Positions 2,266 through 36,708 of a stretch of 37,442 nucleotides of DNA are shown piece by piece. The notes under the pieces were generated by a model. The model did no database searches. It saw only the letters and a program-made list of their open reading frames with translations, and had not been told where the DNA came from. Position 1 is the stretch's first letter; the number at the start of each line of letters is the position of its first letter. Made by a program: the position numbers and the translations under genes. Source of the DNA: Patescibacteria group bacterium (lineage in GTDB: Bacteria; Patescibacteriota; Doudnabacteria; UBA920); contig DASPKA010000048.1 in assembly GCA_035628335.1 (NCBI GenBank), positions 1 through 37,442 on the forward strand. Direction: 5' to 3'.

Positions 2266-2305
2266 AGAGCATGCTTATAGTGGTTAACTTAAAGATAAAT
2301 CATTA

Positions 2306-2332
2306 TTAGCACTCTGTCAAGTAGAGTGCTAA
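2306..2332. promoter_or_regulatory. CIRCE operator (HrcA binding site)
   Basis: ttagcactc-tgtcaagta-gagtgctaa is an exact match to the consensus TTAGCACTC-N9-GAGTGCTAA. It lies upstream of hrcA. Confidence 0.92.
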
Positions 2333-2392
2333 TAATGTATGTTATCAAGAAAAAACCCGCCTTTCACTCCATTGGACGGTTTTTTCTATAGG

Positions 2393-27659: not shown

Positions 27660-27734
27660 GGTGCCCGTAGTTTAATGGTAGAACGCAGCTCTGTGAAAGC
27701 TGTCGCGGGAGTTCGATTCTCCTCGGGCACCCCA
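27660..27734 (+). tRNA. tRNA-His (anticodon GTG) with encoded G-1 and CCA
   Basis: Hand-folded. Acceptor gtgcccg/cgggcac. G-1 (27660) lies opposite C73. D arm gttt-aatggta-gaac. Anticodon stem cagct/agctg with loop ctGTGaa. T arm gggag-ttcgatt-ctcct. 3' CCA at 27732-27734. Confidence 0.93.
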
Positions 27735-27737
27735 CAC

Positions 27738-27768
27738 AAAAACACTAGGGTAATGCTAGTGTTTTTGT
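27738..27768 (+). terminator. Rho-independent terminator after tRNA-His
   Basis: aaaaacactag-ggtaatg-ctagtgttttt followed by gtt. Confidence 0.75.
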
Positions 27769-28067
27769 TATGCACAAGACAAGTTTTAACTATATATATT
27801 TTAGTGCTTTTTTTAATGAAAACACCACATTATAGAGAAATGAAAATATTATTTGTGGTGTTGTTAGACACGATAACGACGGCGGCCTTTGTTTTCATGG
27901 CGAATGTGTTCTAAAATAGTTTTTATAATCTCTATATTGCATCCAAATATAATACATTAATTACAACATACTTCAAGCTTTTACAAAGGCCGCCGTTGTT
28001 GGGCTTGGTGCAAAAGCATAGCCTAATTTTAGGACCTAAACTAAGGTAAAAAAAGATCTTCTCAGCC

Positions 28068-28865
28068 TCAGCTTCGAAGACCTTTAGTCAGTCGACTTAT
28101 CCGTTTCTCATAGGATGGGTGACTTGTAACAGGGAACCTCAGGGGTATTCCCAGAAATGTATAGGGGCTTGCAAAGAAATTCTGGATTGTCAGGTAGGAT
28201 CTTAAATTCTTCAGGTTTTCCTCACTCTTGCTCGCACAGTAGTCATCCGCATCACACTCCTGCAGATAGCGTATTCCTGCATCGAAATATTTCAACAGAA
28301 CAAACCATGCTGCATAGAATCCCAACTCTTTCGCGCCAAAGCTAAATGAAACAATGCTCACTAAAACACAAAAAATCAGAAATGCGAATGCTTTAGTTTT
28401 GCTTGGCAATCGCTTGCCTCGATCTATAACTGGAAAGATGACATTCCAGGTCAACACCTCAAGCAAGATGCTTAAAGAGATGCATCGTACCAGATTAAAC
28501 ACCCACACATGCCTTAACCGAATGTGACCAAGTTCGTGGTCTACTAACGAGTCTACGAGACTGGGGAAAGTTTCCAAAGTCAAGCGATTGATCATAATCA
28601 AATCAGAACGACCCCATATTCCCGGTATACCACATGTGCGGCCTGTTTCACTTACTCGCAGTTCAAACGTCCTATCTGAACAGCTATCTGTTAAAAGCTC
28701 GGAGGTATTTAGGACGTACCGATACGCCCGAAAGTACCCAGCTAGGCTAAAGTATCCCGAAATCACCAATCCTACTGCATACACTGCGAAGGGCATTTCT
28801 AGAACCCAAAGTATATACAGTATATTTGCTATTAACGCAAAAGCCGCAAAAATTGTGCTTTTCAT
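28068..28865 (-). CDS. Membrane zinc metalloprotease-like protein (HExxH, M48/M56-like)
   Basis: Start moved to ATG 28863-28865 (SD aaaggaggagg). Motif DHELGHIRLRH. Several TM helices lie on both sides of the motif. Confidence 0.65.
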   Translation of the reverse strand: MKSTIFAAFALIANILYILWVLEMPFAVYAVGLVISGYFSLAGYFRAYRYVLNTSELLTDSCSDRTFELRVSETGRTCGIPGIWGRSDLIMINRLTLETFPSLVDSLVDHELGHIRLRHVWVFNLVRCISLSILLEVLTWNVIFPVIDRGKRLPSKTKAFAFLIFCVLVSIVSFSFGAKELGFYAAWFVLLKYFDAGIRYLQECDADDYCASKSEENLKNLRSYLTIQNFFASPYTFLGIPLRFPVTSHPSYEKRISRLTKGLRS

Positions 28866-29200
28866 ATCCTCCTCCTTTGGCAAAAGTATAACCTAATCAT
28901 CCTGTCTAGGAAATACTTCTGTAAAAAAGCATGCTCGGTAACGGGCACGCTTTTAAGTCTCGCATAATAACCTGAGTTGTTTAGTCAAAAGTCCAACTGG
29001 CAGCCTGGTCCTCCCTTATGCGTCATTGAATGCTATTTTATCCCGCAAATAAGCGAAAAAGATAGTCGGCACGTCAGTAGATTTCGTACACCCACCTGAG
29101 GTTAGCTTGGTCCATGAAGCTTCCTTATTTTCAGGATCAACGACCAGACCCGCGTCCGAGACAAGCTGAGCTAGGGAATACTATTTTTGGGCGATACTAT

Positions 29201-29231
29201 AAAAAAATAGGACGCACAAATCTGTGCGTCC
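29201..29231 (-). terminator. Rho-independent terminator after 29243-29551
   Basis: ggacgcaca-aatc-tgtgcgtcc. On the minus strand the stem is followed by ta-ttttttt. Confidence 0.8.
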
Positions 29232-29242
29232 CTTGTTCGGAT

Positions 29243-29551
29243 TTAGCCCTTACGGGCCATCCTCCAGTTTGCTAGGGTTTCAAAGTAGTTTTTCCGTTGG
29301 CAATCAACAGAGCAAAATACTCTGTCTCCCATCCCTTTCTTGTTGAACTTCAAGAGCAGCGCAGTATCGCCTACGTGCAGGGGCTTGCAACACTCTTCGC
29401 ACGGAACAAAATCTTTTTTTGTCCTTGCATAAGCGTCAAGCATTTTCATCCTGCCGCGGGAAACTCTGCGTGCCCAGCTGACCAGCTTGCGGTCAACTGT
29501 AACCTCTAGGGCTTCTTGATTCTCTCTTAAAAAGGGTTTCAAATTCTCCAT
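29243..29551 (-). CDS. Small zinc-ribbon protein (102 aa) with FCS/TRASH-like Cys pattern
   Basis: CEECC...(about 25 aa)...FCSVDC, i.e. CxxC plus an FCS-type CxxxC. Confidence 0.6.
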   Translation of the reverse strand: MENLKPFLRENQEALEVTVDRKLVSWARRVSRGRMKMLDAYARTKKDFVPCEECCKPLHVGDTALLLKFNKKGMGDRVFCSVDCQRKNYFETLANWRMARKG

Positions 29552-29694
29552 CTTGGTTTCTTTTCTTTGAGAAGCCGGTCCTCGGTCTTCCCGTTACGCC
29601 TAGAACGTGGGGCCTTTCGGCCTTACCGGCTAGGCAATATTGAACTTGCGGCTGCAACAAGTGCAAACTTCGCTGGCTTGAAGCCCCGCTTTTA

Positions 29695-29709
29695 GCAAGA
29701 TGAGAATAA
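29695..29709 (-). promoter_or_regulatory. Conserved 15-nt box TTATTCTCATCTTGC (copy 1) at the predicted transcript start
   Basis: Identical 15-mer at 30381-30395. Both copies lie 3-4 nt downstream of a predicted -10. Both are followed 17-18 nt later by CCAGCGAA (29669-29676 and 30356-30363). Confidence 0.6.
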
Positions 29710-29712
29710 AGT

Positions 29713-29741
29713 ACCATATCATAAAAAATAGTTTCTGTCAA
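29713..29741 (-). promoter_or_regulatory. Sigma70-type promoter for 29243-29551
   Basis: Minus strand: ttgaca (29736-29741), 17 nt, tatggt (29713-29718). Confidence 0.55.
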
Positions 29742-29743
29742 TA

Positions 29744-29781
29744 ACAAAAAAAGAACCAATTATCGGAACGATACTGGTTCT
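29744..29781 (-). terminator. Rho-independent terminator after 29789-30265
   Basis: agaacca (29752-29758)/tggttct (29775-29781). On the minus strand it is followed by tttttttgtt. Confidence 0.65.
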
Positions 29782-29788
29782 TTTGCTC

Positions 29789-30265
29789 TTACGTTTTACT
29801 GTCTTGAAGATCCCACCGCCGAAGAACCTCAAACATAATTGCAGCGCCGTACAGAAATTCATCCCCTGCAAAAACGCTCATGCCTACCATTGCGTCTCCC
29901 AATCCCTTTACCCTGGTTTGCAGTAGCATTGCAGCTGCTATGGTGAAATCTTCTTCTTGTGCATAAGCGTGTATAATCCCCTGGACAAAGCTTGGGGTCA
30001 TTGAAGTAAGAGTTGTTTTTATCCACTCCCTAACCAACACTTCCTTCTCGCCTATTTGAAAAAATATGCCCAGTAACCATCGTGCGCCGTCTTCGATAAC
30101 AAAATGTTGCGAGCCTAGCACATCCATAAAAACTCGTAATTCTGAAGCAGAGTATGCTTGGGTTGCACGATCCATAAAGCCTTGCATGTCTTGCCTAAAC
30201 TCAAGGGCAATCCTATTGCTAAATGCCTTGTCATTTAGTTTCGATGACGCTTCAAGTAGATTCAT
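29789..30265 (-). CDS. Hypothetical protein (158 aa)
   Basis: SD ttaggagg. No recognisable motif. Confidence 0.6.
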   Translation of the reverse strand: MNLLEASSKLNDKAFSNRIALEFRQDMQGFMDRATQAYSASELRVFMDVLGSQHFVIEDGARWLLGIFFQIGEKEVLVREWIKTTLTSMTPSFVQGIIHAYAQEEDFTIAAAMLLQTRVKGLGDAMVGMSVFAGDEFLYGAAIMFEVLRRWDLQDSKT

Positions 30266-30380
30266 TTTTCCTCCTAAATTAATGGGTATTTCTACCCATC
30301 ATATCATAAACTAGCTTATTGTTTCGACTAGTCTCATCTGCCGTAAAATGTTAGTTTCGCTGGTTTAACACTTTGATTGT

Positions 30381-30395
30381 GCAAGATGAGAATAA
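30381..30395 (-). promoter_or_regulatory. Conserved 15-nt box TTATTCTCATCTTGC (copy 2)
   Basis: See copy 1. It is preceded by ttgaca (30423-30428), 17 nt, ttacat (30400-30405) on the minus strand. Confidence 0.6.
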
Positions 30396-30495
30396 TGCAA
30401 TGTAACCTAAAATATTCTACTATGTCAATTGCCAAAAATTCATTAATATTGTTAAATATTAGATCTGTAGAACAACTAAGTAAAGGAGATTTTGA

Positions 30496-31104
30496 ATGGA
30501 GAAATACTATCCAGTATTTTTGTTTATCGCACTACTGATGCTTGCGATTGGATACCTAGCCATTCGCAAAGAAAAGCGTCGGCTAAACACCCTCGCTCGC
30601 TACCACAAACGCTTGCCAATTCTCATGGGACATGATCAGTTCTATGGAAAGTTTGACCTCCGTTCACTAGACCAAGGTCAGACATGGCTCGCTGTTCAAA
30701 CCAGCGAAGATCAGACGGTAACTGTGCTCGGGTACGCAGAGCAGATCTACCCAGGACTGCTTGCCCGTGCATTGCAGAACCGGCTGTTCGTAAACTTACC
30801 CATCGAGTTTTACGAGCAAAACTATAAACGCAGATGCGGTGGAACCGTGGGTTATGGCTCCTATAACCTAGAGTCATTCGACGGAGGAAAAACGTGGTTT
30901 GCCATCAAGTGGACCGACGACTGGCAGTGCATCTACCTCGGCGCAGCTGAAACTGTCTACCCCGGCTTACTCGCTCGACTTCAGGGCTTTGATGCTCTGA
31001 TTGAGCATGTGGAGAAGCATGGGCCAATTACTCTGGCTGGACACGGAGCTGCGAAGGACCTCCAGGTATTAACCGGCGCCGGATTCACGGTCGCGGCCAA
31101 ATAA
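30496..31104 (+). CDS. Membrane-anchored protein with two Asp-box (BNR, SxDxGxTW) repeats (202 aa)
   Basis: N-terminal TM helix. Motifs SLDQGQTW (aa 57-64) and SFDGGKTW (aa 127-134). A 70-aa internal duplication also shares (I/V)YPGLLAR. Confidence 0.7.
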   Translation: MEKYYPVFLFIALLMLAIGYLAIRKEKRRLNTLARYHKRLPILMGHDQFYGKFDLRSLDQGQTWLAVQTSEDQTVTVLGYAEQIYPGLLARALQNRLFVNLPIEFYEQNYKRRCGGTVGYGSYNLESFDGGKTWFAIKWTDDWQCIYLGAAETVYPGLLARLQGFDALIEHVEKHGPITLAGHGAAKDLQVLTGAGFTVAAK

Positions 31105-31163
31105 CTGGTACAAAACAAAAGAGCAGATGCGCTGACGCGTGTCTGATCTTTTCATTTTAGTTG

Positions 31164-31409
31164 TTAATTCCCTATTATTGAGTTGTAAAATCTTGCGCTC
31201 ATGCGCACATTGTATAAGTCAAATCTAAAACCGAATTTCCCAAATTCCCCTGTGTAGTCAACTCCCTCAGCTCTAACTTCAGGAAATTGATGCGCATAAC
31301 AGTACGCTTCGTTGCATTTACATTGGTCGCAAAATTTTACACCACAACCATCATAGTCGCATGATCTTGGTTTCCGCACCCTTCTGGTACATCTTGCACA
31401 ACTTTCCAT
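31164..31409 (-). CDS. Small Cys-rich protein (81 aa)
   Basis: Start moved to ATG 31407-31409 (SD ggaggtgaa). MESCARCTRRVRKPRSCDYDGCGVKFCDQCKCNEAYC. Confidence 0.6.
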   Translation of the reverse strand: MESCARCTRRVRKPRSCDYDGCGVKFCDQCKCNEAYCYAHQFPEVRAEGVDYTGEFGKFGFRFDLYNVRMSARFYNSIIGN

Positions 31410-31451
31410 TTCACCTCCATTCTCCAATCAGATGAGGTTATTGTAGCACAA

Positions 31452-31478
31452 CAAAAAAGGCGTCCCTGGGGGATGCCT
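31452..31478 (-). terminator. Rho-independent terminator after the 49-aa ORF
   Basis: aggcgtccc-tgg-gggatgcct. On the minus strand the stem is followed by tttttt. Confidence 0.75.
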
Positions 31479-31491
31479 CTTTCAAAATTGC

Positions 31492-31641
31492 TTAGTCATG
31501 GACTATTTTGGCGCAGACTCTACATTCGAATCTGCCTTTCCCTCTGCACCCCTCGCGGTGACACATTCGATGTGTGCGAGTTGATGGACAGTGCCAACAT
31601 TTGCCACAATCCCCTGCCAGCCAGAACGCAAACAAGATCAT
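31492..31641 (-). CDS. Small Cys-rich protein (49 aa), not in the ORF track
   Basis: Hand-found ORF: SD aaggaggg 7 nt before ATG 31639-31641; MILFAFWLAGDCGKCWHCPSTRTHRMCHREGCRGKGRFECRVCAKIVHD*. It has its own terminator and a candidate promoter (ttgcaa, 17 nt, tataag). The plus-strand track ORF 31473-31658 has no SD. Confidence 0.55.
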   Translation of the reverse strand: MILFAFWLAGDCGKCWHCPSTRTHRMCHREGCRGKGRFECRVCAKIVHD

Positions 31642-31790
31642 GGTTAAGCCCTCCTTAAGCTAAACGACTATACCTTACTTATACAATTATTAAAACCAAT
31701 TTGCAAGCAAAAAATATATCCCCATAAGCCTTGACTCCTACTGACAAATATTTTTATATAAAAATAGGACATTTAAAAAGGAGAGCTCCC

Positions 31791-32159
31791 ATGAAAGAAA
31801 AAGGTAAGGAACCTAGAGATTTTAAGCCGCTTACCATGCTTGCGGCTGGGTTAACCCTGGGCATCATAGGAATCCTTGGAGCACTTGCACGCGCAAACAG
31901 CTCTAAGCCTTATGGGGTCCTTGCACCAAATGACTTATGGCTGGTAACGCTAATAGGGTGTATATTTATTTCCCGCCCGTTAATTTTGTGTGCCACAGGC
32001 TATAGGGTATATGGCAAAGTGTTTTTTGGCTTATTAGTGATGACAATTTTTGGTATTCTTGCCCTCATAACTGGTCATCTCACCTTTGACTACGACTTCA
32101 CTGCTATCGCACTTGCAGGTGGCTTATATACAGTCTATCAAGCCAGCGAGCTAAAATAA
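31791..32159 (+). CDS. Small polytopic membrane protein (122 aa), paralog of 34451-34816
   Basis: Start moved to ATG 31791 (SD aaaaggagag). PYGVLAPNDLWLVTLIG and YGKVFFGLLVMTIFGILALITGH match PFGLLVPNDMWLVTILG and YGKVASGLVIVTLFSLFAATVGH. Confidence 0.7.
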   Translation: MKEKGKEPRDFKPLTMLAAGLTLGIIGILGALARANSSKPYGVLAPNDLWLVTLIGCIFISRPLILCATGYRVYGKVFFGLLVMTIFGILALITGHLTFDYDFTAIALAGGLYTVYQASELK

Positions 32160-32178
32160 CCTCCAAGATAAATTAATG

Positions 32179-32214
32179 GACATCTCGTCTGAAGATCGAG
32201 ATGTCTATTTTGTT
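32179..32214 (+). terminator. Rho-independent terminator
   Basis: gacatctcg (32179-32187)/cgagatgtc (32197-32205) followed by tattttgtt. Confidence 0.7.
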
Positions 32215-32262: not shown

Positions 32263-34389
32263 ATGAACACACAACAAATACTTAAACAATACTTTGGCCA
32301 TAGAGAATATCGCCCGGGACAAGAAGCGGTAATTAACAATGTTCTGGACAAAAAGGATACACTGGTGATTATGCCGACAGGCGGGGGGAAGTCGCTCTGT
32401 TACCAGCTTCCTGCTCTCGCGCTTCCTGGTATTACCATAGTTGTCTCGCCGCTCATCTCTCTCATGAAAGACCAGGTAGATATACTCCGGGGGTATGGCG
32501 TCTCAGCAGCTTACCTTAACAGTTCGCAGAGCTCGCAGGAAAGAAGCGAAGTTGAAGACTATGCAAGGTCAGGCAAGATTAAACTACTCTACGTAGCACC
32601 AGAACGGTTTGCTGCTGATGGGTTTGTGCATTTCCTAAACAGCCTAAATATTTCTTTATTTGCGGTTGACGAAGCCCACTGTATTTCTGAGTGGGGGCAT
32701 GAGTTTCGGCCTGAGTATAGACAACTCAAAATTTTACGCAGTTGGTTTCCCACTATTCCCATCATTGCCCTTACTGCTACAGCTACAGCTAAGGTTCGCG
32801 AGGACATAGTAAAAAACTTACATCTAAATTTCCCTCTGGTCCACATCTCCAGCTTTAACCGACCTAACCTGCTCTACCGTGTTGAACCTAAAAAGAAAAG
32901 TAAAGAAAAAATCCTTAGTCTCATTCAAAAACACAAAGATGAAAGCGTAATTATATACTCTTTCTCACGCAATGATACAGAGGACTTGGCGTTGTTTTTA
33001 AAGCATAACGGTATAACCGCAGCTGCCTACCATGGGGGCATGGAACACGAAAGACGTACCAGGGTGCAAGAACAGTTCCGCCGCGATGAAGTACAAGTTA
33101 TTGTTGCAACTATTGCTTTTGGCATGGGCATAGACAAGCCCGACGTTCGGCTTGTTATACACGAAAGCCTGCCTAAGTCTCTGGAAGGCTACTTCCAAGA
33201 AACCGGTCGTGCTGGCCGTGACGGACTGCCTGCTGAGTGTGTGTTGTTTTTCTCTGCTGGTGACGCACAAGGACACCGCTACTTCATTGACCGGTTAGCG
33301 AACGAAGGTGAGAGGCAAAATGCCTCGCAAAAGCTGCAAGAGTGCCTTGCATATGGCCATAGCGGTGTTTGTCGCAGAAAACTTCTGCTTTCATACTTCG
33401 GAGAAGCGTATGAGCCAAACAACTGCGAACTTTGCGACAATTGTCTGGAACCCAGGGAGAGCTTTGAAGCGAGCGAGCTTGCTTTGAAGGTACTCTCAGC
33501 AGTAGTGAAAACCGGACAGCGCTTTGGAGTAACCCATCTGTGTAACGTGCTTCTGGGCAAGCAGAGCGACCGCATGGAAGAGCTGGGGCATGACAAACTC
33601 ACAGTCTTTGGAATCTGTAAAGACTTGAAAGCAGAATATTTAAAAAATATCGTGCAGCAACTTGTCACAAAAAAACTACTCGCACAGACTGAAAGCGAGT
33701 ATCCTACTATATATATTACAACCGAAGGAGTTCATTTTCTGAAAAACCACACGCTCCTGCAACTGCTTGTTCCTATAACACGAAAGAAAAAACAAGATGA
33801 GGTAACAATACAAAATGAGTATGACGAAGAACTGTTTGAAAAATTACGAGCGCTGCGTAGTGAAATTGCCATTGCTCGGAATGTCCCTGCATATGTTATT
33901 TTTGGAAACAAGACTTTGGAAGAAATGGCACGCTTCTATCCACAGACGGAAAGTTCGCTTCGTAAAATTTCTGGAGTTGGGGATATGAAACTAAAAGAAT
34001 TCGGCGCAAGGTTTCTTGCGGAAATATTGTCGTACACACAAGAAAAAAACCTACCAGAAATACCATATGCAGAAACTGTGACAGTAAACTATACTGGAGC
34101 TACCCATGATCAAACCAGAGAATTAGTAACGCAAAAACTACCCCTTGAAACTATAGCCAAAACACGCGGCCTTGCATTGAACACTGTTGTATCACACATC
34201 GAAAAACTAAAATCAACCCATGCGGAGTTGGATATAGATTATCTAAAAACTGATCACACACAAGAAATAATAGAAGCTTTTAAAACACTGAACACCTTAC
34301 AACTCACACCGGTCAAAAATTTTTTTTCAGATGCGTATACCTATGAGGAGCTCCGTATAGCACGGCTATTTGTTATTACTGGAAAATAA
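32263..34389 (+). CDS. recQ: ATP-dependent DNA helicase RecQ
   Basis: YFGHREYRPGQEAVI, Walker A MPTGGGKSLCYQLPA, DEAH box AVDEAHCISEWGHEFRPEY, Zn-binding CRRK..C..CDNC, HRDC LRSEIAIARNVPAYVIFGNKTLEEMA, plus an extra C-terminal HTH-like tail. Confidence 0.95.
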   Translation: MNTQQILKQYFGHREYRPGQEAVINNVLDKKDTLVIMPTGGGKSLCYQLPALALPGITIVVSPLISLMKDQVDILRGYGVSAAYLNSSQSSQERSEVEDYARSGKIKLLYVAPERFAADGFVHFLNSLNISLFAVDEAHCISEWGHEFRPEYRQLKILRSWFPTIPIIALTATATAKVREDIVKNLHLNFPLVHISSFNRPNLLYRVEPKKKSKEKILSLIQKHKDESVIIYSFSRNDTEDLALFLKHNGITAAAYHGGMEHERRTRVQEQFRRDEVQVIVATIAFGMGIDKPDVRLVIHESLPKSLEGYFQETGRAGRDGLPAECVLFFSAGDAQGHRYFIDRLANEGERQNASQKLQECLAYGHSGVCRRKLLLSYFGEAYEPNNCELCDNCLEPRESFEASELALKVLSAVVKTGQRFGVTHLCNVLLGKQSDRMEELGHDKLTVFGICKDLKAEYLKNIVQQLVTKKLLAQTESEYPTIYITTEGVHFLKNHTLLQLLVPITRKKKQDEVTIQNEYDEELFEKLRALRSEIAIARNVPAYVIFGNKTLEEMARFYPQTESSLRKISGVGDMKLKEFGARFLAEILSYTQEKNLPEIPYAETVTVNYTGATHDQTRELVTQKLPLETIAKTRGLALNTVVSHIEKLKSTHAELDIDYLKTDHTQEIIEAFKTLNTLQLTPVKNFFSDAYTYEELRIARLFVITGK

Positions 34390-36276: not shown

Positions 36277-36699
36277 ATGTCAGTAGACAACCAGCTAAAA
36301 TCTCATAAGCTTAAGGTAACACCTGCAAGAACAGGTGTGCTTAAAGTGTTCATACAGAGTACGAAACCACTTTCGCTTACTGAGTTGCAAAAGTCGCTTC
36401 CTAACTTTGACCTGGTAACTTTATACCGAACTGTAGCTACGTTTACAAAGCATGGACTACTTAGGCAGCTTCTTCTGGAAGAAGGAAAGAGCAGATACGA
36501 GCTCCTAAAACCAAACACGCACCACCATCACCTTATATGTCAAACCTGCGGCAAGATAGTTGACATTTCAAAATGCAACACAACAAGTCTTGAAAAGGCA
36601 ATACTAAAACTGAGTGGGTTTGCCTCTCTTTCCCACCACTCACTTGAATACTTTGGCTTATGTAAAAAATGCGCTAAAAAAACACTAGGTACTACCTAG
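36277..36699 (+). CDS. Fur-family metal-responsive transcriptional regulator
   Basis: KVTPARTGVLKVF...LSLTELQ...DLVTLYRTVATFTKHGLL, HHHHLICQTCGKIVDI and a C-terminal CKKC. The subfamily (Fur, Zur or PerR) cannot be decided. Confidence 0.88.
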   Translation: MSVDNQLKSHKLKVTPARTGVLKVFIQSTKPLSLTELQKSLPNFDLVTLYRTVATFTKHGLLRQLLLEEGKSRYELLKPNTHHHHLICQTCGKIVDISKCNTTSLEKAILKLSGFASLSHHSLEYFGLCKKCAKKTLGTT

Positions 36700-36708
36700 T
36701 GTTTTTTT
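36676..36708. terminator. Bidirectional terminator overlapping both convergent stop codons
   Basis: aaaaa-aacactagg-tacta-cctagtgtt-ttttt. Confidence 0.75.

What the first reader, a model, noticed from the sequence alone, without database searches (positions are those of the whole stretch)
29669..30428. A perfectly conserved 15-nt box plus CCAGCGAA loop motif at the 5' ends of two adjacent, separately terminated transcripts
On the minus strand both 29243-29551 and 29789-30265 are preceded by the same series of elements:
- TTGACA, 17 nt, a -10-like hexamer (tatggt or ttacat)
- 3-4 nt
- TTATTCTCATCTTGC (29695-29709 and 30381-30395, 15/15 identical)
- 17-18 nt
- CCAGCGAA (29669-29676 and 30356-30363)

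A 15-mer recurring by chance in 37 kb is very unlikely. In both leaders CUUGC can pair with a downstream GCAAG or GCAGAUGAG. In the second leader this gives 9 bp with one bulge, using 30333-30341. The pairing encloses about 40 nt in which CCAGCGAA sits in a hairpin loop (UGUUA/UAACA in one leader, CAAG/UUUG in the other).

The element is either an operator overlapping the TSS for a shared regulator or a small cis-regulatory RNA motif. It links a zinc-ribbon protein and an unknown 158-aa protein into one regulon.
Basis: seen in the sequence. Interest (0 to 1): 0.6.

Follow-up and report, generated by a model that had tools for sequence, protein, structure and literature searches.

The report
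Shared 5' leader box of two orphan genes
Two neighbouring genes of unknown function in a tiny uncultured bacterium start their messages with the same 15 letters, which can fold back onto a matching stretch further along (in one case the start codon), but the element is found only in this genome.

Summary
On the minus strand two sigma-70-like promoters (TTGACA-17-TATGGT, TTGACA-18-TACATT) are each followed after 3 nt by TTATTCTCATCTTGC and after 17/18 nt more by CCAGCGAA. Each gene has its own strong terminator.

The two copies belong to an 84-column stretch that is 69% identical, running from upstream of the -35 to CCAGCGAA. The -35, the box and the 8-mer are perfect islands in a diverged background.

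The element is private to this 1.32-Mb Patescibacteria-type genome. There is no third copy, nothing in 145 class relatives, only chance-level hits in the genome and metagenome collections, no Rfam match, and both proteins are orphans. Covariation therefore cannot be tested.

The new point is the pairing partner. In leader 2 it pairs with GCAGAUGAGA. Both leaders fold better than shuffles (z about -3.3 to -3.5).

My best reading (0.45) is a duplicated 5'-terminal closing helix that affects mRNA stability and start-codon access. Rivals are an operator at the transcription start site (0.2) and a duplication relic without function (0.2). Interest is modest.

The parts
29713..29741 (-). Promoter P1 of the 102-aa gene: TTGACA, 17 nt, TATGGT with TG before the -10
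   Evidence: 10 of 12 matches; sequence
29695..29709 (-). Box copy 1, TTATTCTCATCTTGC. The presumed +1 is A29707, so the RNA would begin AUUCUCAUCUUGC
   Evidence: The TSS is inferred from its distance to the -10 and is not mapped
29669..29676 (-). CCAGCGAA copy 1, in the apical part of the first hairpin of leader 1. GCGA is predicted to be paired
29543..29555 (-). Anti-box 1, CAAGAUGGAGAAU. It pairs with the box over 12 bp with one bulged G and contains the AUG (29549-29551) of the 102-aa ORF
   Evidence: pair probabilities about 0.35-0.66; duplex -12.4 kcal/mol
29243..29551 (-). 102-aa orphan ORF with C51-x2-C54 ... C80-x3-C84 and an FCS motif (zinc-ribbon, TRASH/zf-FCS-like)
   Evidence: No Pfam match
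29209..29232 (-). Intrinsic terminator of the 102-aa gene
   Evidence: -17.6 kcal/mol, z -5.81
30399..30428 (-). Promoter P2 of the 158-aa gene: TTGACA, 18 nt, TACATT
   Evidence: 10 of 12
30381..30395 (-). Box copy 2, TTATTCTCATCTTGC. The presumed +1 is A30393
30356..30363 (-). CCAGCGAA copy 2, in the 12-nt loop of the hairpin AAAGUGUUA/UAACAUUUU
   Evidence: unpaired probability at least 0.96 at every position
30332..30341 (-). Anti-box 2, GCAGAUGAGA. It pairs with the box (7 + 3 bp, one bulged U) and closes a 5'-terminal stem-loop
   Evidence: pair probabilities 0.95-1.0
30298..30327 (-). Second, weaker promoter-like site inside leader 2 (TCGAAA, 18 nt, TATGAT). It shares TTTATGATATG with P1
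29789..30265 (-). 158-aa orphan ORF, all-helical, preceded by AGGAGG. Residues 73-123 resemble the repeat unit of a PPR protein
29745..29784 (-). Intrinsic terminator of the 158-aa gene (hairpin plus UUUUUUU), ending just before the -35 of P1
   Evidence: -17.0 kcal/mol, z -5.55

Best explanation
The two copies are paralogous promoter-plus-leader modules that arose by a local duplication now diverged to about 50% identity outside three perfect islands. The conserved box is the very 5' end of both mRNAs (presumed +1 is the A at its third position).

In both transcripts the box forms the 5' strand of a closing helix with a downstream complementary segment, AGAUG(G)AGA.
- In the 158-aa gene's leader the partner lies 40 nt downstream. 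This gives a stable 5'-terminal stem-loop whose inner hairpin displays CCAGCGAA in its loop.
- In the 102-aa gene's leader the partner is 140 nt downstream and is the start codon region itself. The helix closes the whole structured leader and hides the AUG.

Inferred consequences:
- A paired 5' end shields the mRNA from 5'-end-dependent decay. The genome has RNase J and RNase Y, and no RNase E/G was found.
- For the 102-aa gene, translation is held low until the helix opens.
- CCAGCGAA may be a contact for a shared factor.

Shown here: the sequence elements, the predicted folds and their statistics, and the restriction to this genome. Inferred: the TSS, that the helices form in vivo, and any regulatory effect.
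For: **Homology with conserved islands**
- The box sits 3 nt after the -10 in both copies, so it defines the RNA 5' end.
- A local alignment gives 58/84 identical columns from upstream of the -35 to CCAGCGAA, with perfect islands of 7, 15 and 8 nt.
- Free promoter positions are 17/31 = 0.55 identical, by my count on alignment A2. Random promoter-like pairs in this genome give 0.31 +/- 0.09.

**Folding**
- Leader 2: the 74-nt and 133-nt folds have z -3.32 and -3.55 (1 and 0 of 200 shuffles as good). The box:anti-box helix is in the minimum-energy and centroid folds, with pair probabilities 0.95-1.0.
- Leader 1, 171 nt from the presumed +1: -58.2 kcal/mol, z -3.34 (1 of 200 shuffles). The minimum-energy and centroid folds both pair AUUCUC/AUCUUG with CAAGAU-G-GAGAAU over the AUG, with pair probabilities about 0.35-0.66.

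**Complementarity controls**
- The duplex is -12.4 kcal/mol in each leader. Shuffled boxes reach both values in 6 of 2000 trials.
- Among 92 promoter-like sites, these two rank 9th and 10th for pairing between the 5' 15-mer and the downstream sequence.

**RNA rather than DNA**
- The two anti-boxes differ from the exact complement by different single-base indels (a bulged G, a bulged U). RNA helices tolerate this; repeated protein-binding DNA sites generally do not.
- Anti-box 2 is not a relic of the gene-1 start. There is no similarity beyond it (364 of 500 shuffles score as well).
- The hairpin stems around CCAGCGAA differ in sequence but both form.

**Plausibility in this organism**
- RNase J scores 599.7 bits and RNase Y 579 bits, both over their cut-offs. 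RNase E/G was not found in a 95%-complete genome.
- Shine-Dalgarno use is low: 98 of 668 ORFs against 780 of 11280 random positions. Start-site accessibility should therefore matter.
- 5'-terminal stem-loops as mRNA stabilisers are established knowledge. I saw the titles of Emory et al. 1992, Bouvet and Belasco 1992 and Hambraeus et al. 2002 in the reference list of PMC3997798.
Against: **No comparative support**
- There are only two copies, both in one genome, so covariation cannot be tested.
- The box is invariant, so the helix shows no compensatory change.

**The statistics are modest**
- Each complement alone is only moderately unusual: 104 and 93 of 2000 shuffled boxes, and 444 and 83 of 2000 random genomic 15-mers, do as well. 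Random genomic 15-mers reach both in 46 of 2000 trials.
- 8 of the 90 other promoter-like sites do as well or better.

**The two leaders are not equivalent**
- The helix hides the start codon only in leader 1. In leader 2 it is 75 nt upstream of the real AUG, and a second promoter-like site lies downstream of it.
- The first 83 nt of leader 1 alone do not fold better than shuffles (z +0.61).
- The leader-1 partner is 140 nt away, so local alternatives could form first during transcription.
- CCAGCGAA is single-stranded in leader 2 but half paired in leader 1. Freeing it costs 3.7 kcal/mol.

**Assumptions**
- The TSS is not mapped.
- The true start of the 102-aa ORF is uncertain. It has no SD, and an internal AGGA-N5-AUG exists at Met37 (read).
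Confidence: 0.45

Rival explanations
1. The box is a DNA operator overlapping the transcription start site. One regulator binds at about -2 to +13 of both promoters and co-represses the two genes. CCAGCGAA, or the inverted anti-box copies, would be auxiliary sites.
For: - The position relative to the -10 is identical (3 nt) in both promoters, while the -35/-10 spacer differs by 1 nt.
- There is 15/15 identity in a background of about 50%.
- The box and anti-box form inverted DNA repeats at both loci.
- A Fur-family regulator is encoded 6 kb away at 36277-36699, and one product is a zinc-ribbon protein.
Against: - The box has no internal dyad or direct-repeat symmetry (read).
- The inverted copies carry different indels and lie 40 and 140 bp away, which is unlike paired operator half-sites.
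- No further sites exist in the genome, although a regulator usually has more targets or autoregulates.
- The match to the Fur-box consensus as I recall it is only about a half-site, by eye. The promoter of the fur operon shares only ATGAGA with the complement of the box.
- No regulator gene is adjacent.
Confidence: 0.2
2. The elements are a relic of a local duplication with no dedicated function. One promoter-leader segment was copied in front of the neighbouring gene, and the perfect islands reflect promoter constraint plus chance or a short gene-conversion tract.
For: - The similarity extends over 84 columns that include the promoter.
- There is no third copy and no conservation in 145 class relatives, in 596 Gb of species-representative genomes, or in the metagenome collection.
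- Both genes are orphans in a lineage-specific 4-kb region.
- Part of the upstream similarity is generic promoter consensus, seen in relatives' promoters.
- The 8-mer is not significant if the flanks are homologous at about 50% identity (my arithmetic).
Against: - Fifteen consecutive identities in a background of about 0.5-0.55 have a probability of about 1e-4 per position (my arithmetic).
- The box is outside the -35 and -10 hexamers, so promoter constraint does not explain it.
- Both leaders independently carry a complement to the box (6 of 2000 shuffled boxes), and anti-box 2 was not inherited with gene-1 sequence.
- A simple target-site duplication does not explain matching promoters upstream of both copies and CCAGCGAA downstream of both.
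Confidence: 0.2
3. The conserved sequence acts on the plus strand. The complement of the box supplies a -35-like or -10-like element (ATGAGA or GAGAAT) for divergent or antisense promoters. At copy 2 this promoter would serve the divergent 202-aa gene (30496-31104).
For: - Plus-strand promoter-like sites TTAACA-17-GAGAAT (30365-30393) and ATGAGA-16-TAAAAT (30386-30413), each 9 of 12, overlap box 2.
- At copy 1, TTGAAG-18-GAGAAT can be read at the same offset from TTCGCTGG (by eye).
- The 202-aa gene needs a promoter in this 230-bp intergenic region.
Against: - At copy 1 there is no plus-strand gene to serve; a transcript would be antisense to the 158-aa gene.
- The sites are weak (9 of 12), and the scan finds 7 promoter-like sites in this AT-rich stretch against 3.3 +/- 2.1 in shuffles.
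- The -35-like hexamers fall in the non-conserved part.
Confidence: 0.05
4. The box is a promoter-proximal pause or antitermination site. The -10-like TATTCT at about -1 to +5 would hold sigma-70 RNA polymerase for loading of a Q-like factor.
For: - TATTCT inside the box has the A2 and T6 of a -10 hexamer and lies just downstream of the real -10 in both copies.
- The nearest feature-space cluster of the 102-aa protein is a phage zf-FCS cluster (score 0.92).
Against: - No phage genes were detected. PHROGs gives nothing at E below 0.1 for 8 neighbouring proteins.
- No Q-like gene is present.
- Each gene is a short unit with its own terminator, so there is nothing to read through.
- The comparison with lambda PR' rests on recall only.
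Confidence: 0.03

Closest known systems
5'-terminal stem-loop mRNA stabilisers (E. coli ompA and papA leaders, B. subtilis aprE leader)
   Same: A helix at or within 0-3 nt of the presumed 5' end. The organism has the RNase J/Y type of decay machinery, against which such helices protect. The principle comes from titles in the reference list of PMC3997798 and from recall.
   Different: There is no sequence relationship. In leader 1 the helix is long-range (140 nt) and includes the start codon. No stabilisation has been measured, and the TSS is not mapped.
Translation-occluding leaders and RNA thermometers (ROSE, fourU type), recalled from memory
   Same: A moderately stable, bulged helix (12 bp, -12.4 kcal/mol) covers the AUG of the 102-aa ORF.
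   Different: Known thermometers usually pair the SD with a nearby upstream strand. Here the 5' terminus pairs with the AUG across a 140-nt structured domain, there is no SD, and leader 2 does not occlude its start. No Rfam family matches.
Riboswitches and ribosomal-protein-leader type cis-regulatory RNAs
   Same: A closing P1 helix made by the 5' end, an enclosed hairpin with a conserved loop sequence, and the 3' strand of P1 overlapping the translation start in leader 1.
   Different: No conservation beyond one genome, no covariation, no known aptamer. The enclosed domains of the two leaders are unrelated apart from CCAGCGAA.
Repressor operators overlapping +1 (for example the Fur/Zur and LexA classes)
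   Same: A perfectly conserved site at a fixed position over the TSS of two promoters.
   Different: No dyad symmetry, no other sites in the genome, and no adjacent regulator.

Membership tests
Any Rfam 15 family | Covariance-model score at or above the family's gathering threshold | tested here: not met
   - Whole window: only tRNA reaches its threshold.
- Region 29000-30700 at E up to 10: best hit is IMES-4 at 19.2 bits against a threshold of 48.
Sigma-70-type promoter | TTGACA / TATAAT-like hexamers with a 16-18 nt spacer upstream of the gene | tested here: met
   Both sites score 10 of 12. No transcription data are available.
5'-terminal stem-loop stabiliser | Base pairing that begins within a few nucleotides of the mRNA 5' end | tested here: inconclusive
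   With the presumed +1 (A29707, A30393), predicted pairing starts at nt 1 in leader 1 and at nt 3-4 in leader 2. The TSS is inferred, not mapped.
5'-terminal stem-loop stabiliser | Longer mRNA half-life that depends on the helix | not testable with these tools
   Needs decay measurements.
Start-codon/SD-occluding leader | The initiation region is sequestered in a helix in the predicted ensemble | tested here: inconclusive
   - Met for the 102-aa ORF: the AUG is paired with p 0.35-0.66.
- Not met for the 158-aa ORF: the helix lies 75 nt upstream of its AUG.
Riboswitch / conserved cis-regulatory RNA | Homologues in other genomes with covarying helices | tested here: not met
   - No copy in 100 relatives or in 145 class genomes.
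- 13 and 22 chance-level matches in the genome and metagenome collections, none with a promoter context.
Transcription-factor operator | Dyad or direct-repeat symmetry, and further sites or a cognate regulator nearby | tested here: not met
   - No symmetry in the box.
- Only 2 sites in the genome.
- The nearest regulator is a Fur-family gene 6 kb away, with no similar site at its own promoter.
TRASH / zf-FCS zinc ribbon (102-aa protein) | Match to the Pfam zf-FCS or TRASH models | tested here: not met
   - No Pfam family even at E up to 10.
- The C-x2-C ... C-x3-C pattern with FCS can be read from the sequence.
- The nearest Atlas cluster is zf-FCS at 0.92 with 159 shared features, which is below the 170 guide value.
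PPR helical-repeat protein (158-aa protein) | Match to the Pfam PPR models | tested here: not met
   - No PPR model at E up to 0.1.
- There is one phmmer hit to a PPR protein, E 1.7e-5, with residues 73-123 matching its repeat unit at 24-27% identity.

The most novel reading that the evidence does not exclude
The two genes form a self-contained post-transcriptional circuit. One of the encoded orphan proteins binds the single-stranded CCAGCGAA displayed in both leaders. The candidates are the 158-aa helical protein, whose residues 73-123 resemble PPR repeats, and the 102-aa TRASH-like zinc ribbon. Binding would open or lock the box helix, co-regulating the stability of both mRNAs and access to the AUG of the 102-aa gene. 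This would be a sequence-specific helical-repeat RNA-binding regulator of a kind almost unknown in bacteria, in a minimal-genome Patescibacterium.
Probability: 0.06. Interest if true: 0.6.

Novelty: new member of a known kind. Interest (0 to 1): 0.3.

Why it matters
- If the helix is real, it is a compact example of two unrelated genes being wired together by copying a promoter plus the first 40 nt of a leader.
- It would also show a 5' terminus being used both as a decay shield and as an anti-start-codon strand, in a genome that uses few Shine-Dalgarno sites. Gene regulation in Patescibacteria is almost unstudied experimentally.
- The element is confined to one genome and to two orphan genes. 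Its general importance is therefore small, and it cannot be validated by comparative analysis today.

Tried and rejected
- **Known RNA family.** Rfam found nothing.
- **More copies in the genome.** Up to 3 mismatches to the box and up to 1 to its 11-nt core give only coding or chance sites. The sequence-only model R1 scores 87 and 84 bits on the two copies and 12 bits on the next site.
- **Relatives.**
  - The exact gapped pattern is absent from 100 relatives.
  - R1 hits in relatives are at most 20.6 bits and are generic promoters.
  - The promoter-plus-CCAGCGAA pattern gives 4 unrelated hits in 145 class genomes.
- **Public collections.** There are 13 matches in genome contigs and 22 in metagenome contigs, all lacking the promoter context and at the number expected by chance. 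Records of this genome may be left out there.
- **Homologous leaders through the proteins.** Both proteins are orphans.
- **Conserved leader peptide.** The box is read as ILIL in both copies, but CCAGCGAA falls in different frames and the ORFs would start upstream of the -10. Rejected.
- **Anti-box 2 as a relic of the gene-1 start.** No similarity beyond it. Rejected.
- **The 102-aa and 158-aa proteins as paralogues.** E 0.025 over 40 residues. Not supported.
- **GC-rich middle of leader 1 as a copy of the window's GC-rich mobile repeat, or of any repeat.** No blastn match in the genome.
- **tRNA-like look of 29140-29190.** ARAGORN and Rfam find nothing.
- **CCAGCGAA in rRNA.** Only two 16S-end motifs were located, and this was not pursued.
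- **Phage origin.** PHROGs gives nothing at E below 0.1.
- **Structure prediction.** Both single-sequence models were too poor to search with (pLDDT 49.7 and 43.9).
- **By eye, against consensus sequences recalled from memory.**
  - Sigma-28, sigma-54 and ECF two-block promoters: poor matches.
  - DnaA box (TTATTCTCA is one mismatch from TTATNCACA) and a Fur half-site: noted but unsupported.
- **Literature.** A search for Patescibacteria plus riboswitch or cis-regulatory RNA returned nothing relevant among the 12 listed of 164 papers.
Full report
**1. Observation**

On the minus strand the sequence is exactly as described.
- Promoter-like sites TTGACA-17-TATGGT (29741-29713) and TTGACA-18-TACATT (30428-30399) each match 10 of 12 consensus positions.
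- Three nucleotides after each -10 comes TTATTCTCATCTTGC (29709-29695 and 30395-30381).
- CCAGCGAA follows 17 or 18 nt later (29676-29669 and 30363-30356).
- The downstream genes are a 102-aa ORF (29551-29243) and a 158-aa ORF (30265-29789).
- Each gene ends in a strong hairpin followed by a U-run: -17.6 kcal/mol with z -5.81, and -17.0 kcal/mol with z -5.55. They are predicted to be separate transcription units.

An exact 15-mer repeat in 37 kb is not in itself improbable. By my arithmetic roughly 0.8 direct pairs are expected. The context is what makes it non-random.
- The 1.32-Mb genome holds only 95 TTGACA-N16-18-TAnnnT sites.
- Two adjacent ones carry the same 15-mer at the same offset.
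- Of 42 CCAGCGAA sites in the genome, only these two follow the box.

**2. Extent of the similarity**

A permissive local alignment joins the two copies over 84 columns (58 identical, 69%), from about 10 nt upstream of the -35 to CCAGCGAA (alignment A2).
- Within it, ATTGACA (7), the box (15) and CCAGCGAA (8) are perfect. The rest is about half identical.
- At positions not fixed by the promoter definition I count 17 of 31 identical on A2. Random pairs of promoter-like sites in this genome give 0.31 +/- 0.09, with a maximum of 0.62 in 5000 pairs.
- Part of the upstream similarity is generic promoter consensus (a T-run and an AT-rich spacer), which also appears in relatives' promoters picked up by a sequence-only model.

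I read this as an old local duplication of a promoter-leader module in which three islands have been kept. A simple target-site duplication does not explain matching promoters upstream of both box copies and CCAGCGAA downstream of both.

**3. Distribution**

The genome is a 1.32-Mb, 141-contig, 95%-complete assembly.
- **No third copy.** Searches with up to 3 mismatches to the box, or up to 1 to its 11-nt core, give only unrelated sites. Model R1 scores 87 and 84 bits on the two copies and 12 bits on the next site.
- **Relatives.** The gapped pattern is absent from 100 relatives. R1 finds at most 20.6 bits there, all generic promoters or noise. A promoter-plus-CCAGCGAA pattern gives 4 unrelated hits in the 145 other genomes of the class, against 1 for the reversed control.
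- **Public collections.** There are 13 matches in species-representative genomes and 22 in metagenome contigs. All lack a promoter context and most lie in high-GC DNA, at about the number expected by chance.
- **Known families.** Rfam has nothing.
- **Proteins.** Both proteins are orphans. Each finds only itself among 5.8 billion clustered proteins. The exhaustive profile-free search adds one weak hit for the 158-aa protein.
- **Neighbourhood.** At DNA level only tRNA-His and recQ of the 26.5-34.5 kb stretch are recognisable in 60 relatives. Nothing between 27.8 and 32.2 kb is.

Comparative or covariation tests are therefore impossible at present.

**4. What the box can do**

With the usual 6-7 nt distance from the -10, transcription should start at the A that is the third base of the box (A29707, A30393). 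The RNAs would then begin AUUCUCAUCUUGC.

*Leader 2*
- The box pairs with GCAGAUGAGA (30341-30332), 7 + 3 bp with one bulged U.
- This encloses the hairpin AAAGUGUUA/UAACAUUUU, whose 12-nt loop is AACCAGCGAAAC.
- Folds of 74 and 133 nt have z -3.32 and -3.55. The helix has pair probabilities of 0.95-1.0.

*Leader 1*
- In the minimum-energy and centroid structures, AUUCUC/AUCUUG pairs with CAAGAU-G-GAGAAU (29555-29543). That is the start codon of the 102-aa ORF, 140 nt downstream.
- The helix closes a leader of three further hairpins: -58.2 kcal/mol, z -3.34, 1 of 200 shuffles as good. Pair probabilities are about 0.35-0.66.

*Controls*
- The box-to-target duplex is -12.4 kcal/mol in both leaders.
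- Shuffled boxes reach this in 104 and 93 of 2000 trials singly and in 6 of 2000 jointly. Random genomic 15-mers reach both in 46 of 2000.
- Among 92 promoter-like sites of the genome, the two rank 9th and 10th for this kind of 5'-to-downstream complementarity.
- The two anti-boxes differ from the perfect complement by different single-base indels, which suits RNA helices better than repeated protein-binding DNA sites.
- Anti-box 2 is not a leftover of the gene-1 start. Similarity stops at its end (364 of 500 shuffles score as well).

*CCAGCGAA*
- It sits at the tip of the first hairpin inside the closing helix in both leaders.
- It is fully unpaired only in leader 2. In leader 1 GCGA is predicted to be paired, and freeing it costs 3.7 kcal/mol.

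**5. Mechanism proposed**

The genome encodes RNase J (599.7 bits) and RNase Y (579 bits). No RNase E/G was found. This is the Bacillus-type decay machinery, in which a paired 5' end hinders 5'-end-dependent attack. That principle is established knowledge: I saw only the titles of Emory et al. 1992, Bouvet and Belasco 1992 and Hambraeus et al. 2002 in the reference list of PMC3997798, and the rest is recalled.

Shine-Dalgarno use is low: 98 of 668 long ORFs against 780 of 11280 random positions. Initiation should therefore depend on an open start region, and a helix over the AUG of the 102-aa ORF should depress its translation.

I therefore propose a shared 5'-terminal closing helix with two effects:
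- it stabilises both mRNAs;
- for the 102-aa gene, it gates the start codon.

CCAGCGAA may be a contact for a common factor. Everything beyond the sequence and the predicted folds is inference. I give this reading 0.45.

**6. Rivals**

- **Operator over +1 (0.2).** It fits the fixed position and the perfect conservation. Against it, the box has no symmetry, there are no other sites, and no regulator is adjacent. The Fur-family gene at 36277-36699 has no similar site at its own promoter.
- **Functionless duplication relic (0.2).** It fits the lack of any conservation elsewhere and the orphan genes. It has to accept a 15-base perfect run in a half-diverged background and two independent complements to it.
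- **Plus-strand promoter elements (0.05).** Candidate sites are TTAACA-17-GAGAAT and ATGAGA-16-TAAAAT, which at copy 2 would serve the divergent 202-aa gene. They cannot be excluded, but at copy 1 there is no gene to serve.
- **Sigma-dependent pause or antitermination site (0.03).** The gene context gives it no support.

**7. The proteins**

*102-aa ORF*
- It has C51-x2-C54 and C80-x3-C84 with an FCS motif.
- Its nearest cluster in the protein atlas is a phage zf-FCS cluster (score 0.92, 159 shared features, a lead only).
- Pfam does not match even at E up to 10.
- Its start is uncertain. There is no SD, and an internal AGGA-N5-AUG lies at Met37 (read).

*158-aa ORF*
- It has a perfect AGGAGG and is predicted to be all-helical.
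- Residues 73-123 match the repeat unit of a PPR protein several times at 24-27% identity.
- No PPR model of Pfam matches it.

Single-sequence structure models of both proteins were too poor to use (pLDDT 49.7 and 43.9).

**8. Verdict**

- It is a lineage-private, two-copy promoter-leader module of a kind (5' stem-loop / start-occluding leader) that is known in principle.
- It belongs to no described family and cannot be tested by comparative means today.
- Interest is modest (0.3).
- The boldest reading not excluded is a two-gene post-transcriptional circuit in which one of the orphan proteins binds CCAGCGAA (probability about 0.06).

Noticed in passing
window 2301-2337: A perfect 15-nt inverted repeat, CATTATTAGCACTCT / AGAGTGCTAATAATG, 7 nt apart (I16). 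It overlaps a TTGACA promoter-like site on the minus strand. TTAGCACTC-N9-GAGTGCTAA is the CIRCE/HrcA operator as I recall it, which suggests a heat-shock chaperone gene downstream.
   Followed up: no
window 27800-32200: The stretch between tRNA-His (27661-27734) and recQ (32263-34389) holds only small lineage-specific ORFs. Besides the two studied here there is an M48-like membrane protein (28068-28883), a 202-aa protein with weak BNR signals, and two more Cys-rich mini-proteins (31164-31427 at 87 aa; 31492-31641 at 49 aa). None has a PHROGs match at E below 0.1. Nothing here is recognisable at DNA level in 60 relatives.
   Followed up: partly
window 30298-30327 (minus strand): A second promoter-like site (TCGAAA-18-TATGAT, TG-extended) lies inside leader 2 and shares the 11-mer TTTATGATATG with the -10 region of P1. 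The 158-aa gene may therefore have two promoters, only one of which gives the box-containing leader.
   Followed up: partly
window 29789-30265 (minus strand), residues 73-123: The orphan 158-aa protein matches the repeat unit of a 689-aa PPR protein (P0003) at six or more positions at 24-27% identity (phmmer E 1.7e-5). Pfam PPR models do not hit it.
   Followed up: partly
window 27738-27766 and 36678-36706: Two similar palindromic hairpins, AAAAACACTAGG...CCTAGTGTTTTT, 79% alike (D2/I4). One lies just after tRNA-His and the other just after the Fur-family gene. They look like bidirectional terminators of a shared sequence type.
   Followed up: no
whole genome G000: Shine-Dalgarno-like tetramers precede only 98 of 668 long ORFs (first ATG), against 780 of 11280 random positions. 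RNase J and RNase Y are present, and RNase E/G was not found.
   Followed up: partly
window 29140-29190 (minus strand): The stretch CCCTAGCTCAGC...GGTCGTTGATCC looks tRNA-like by eye, lying between the terminator of the 102-aa gene and the M48-like gene. ARAGORN and Rfam report nothing there.
   Followed up: yes
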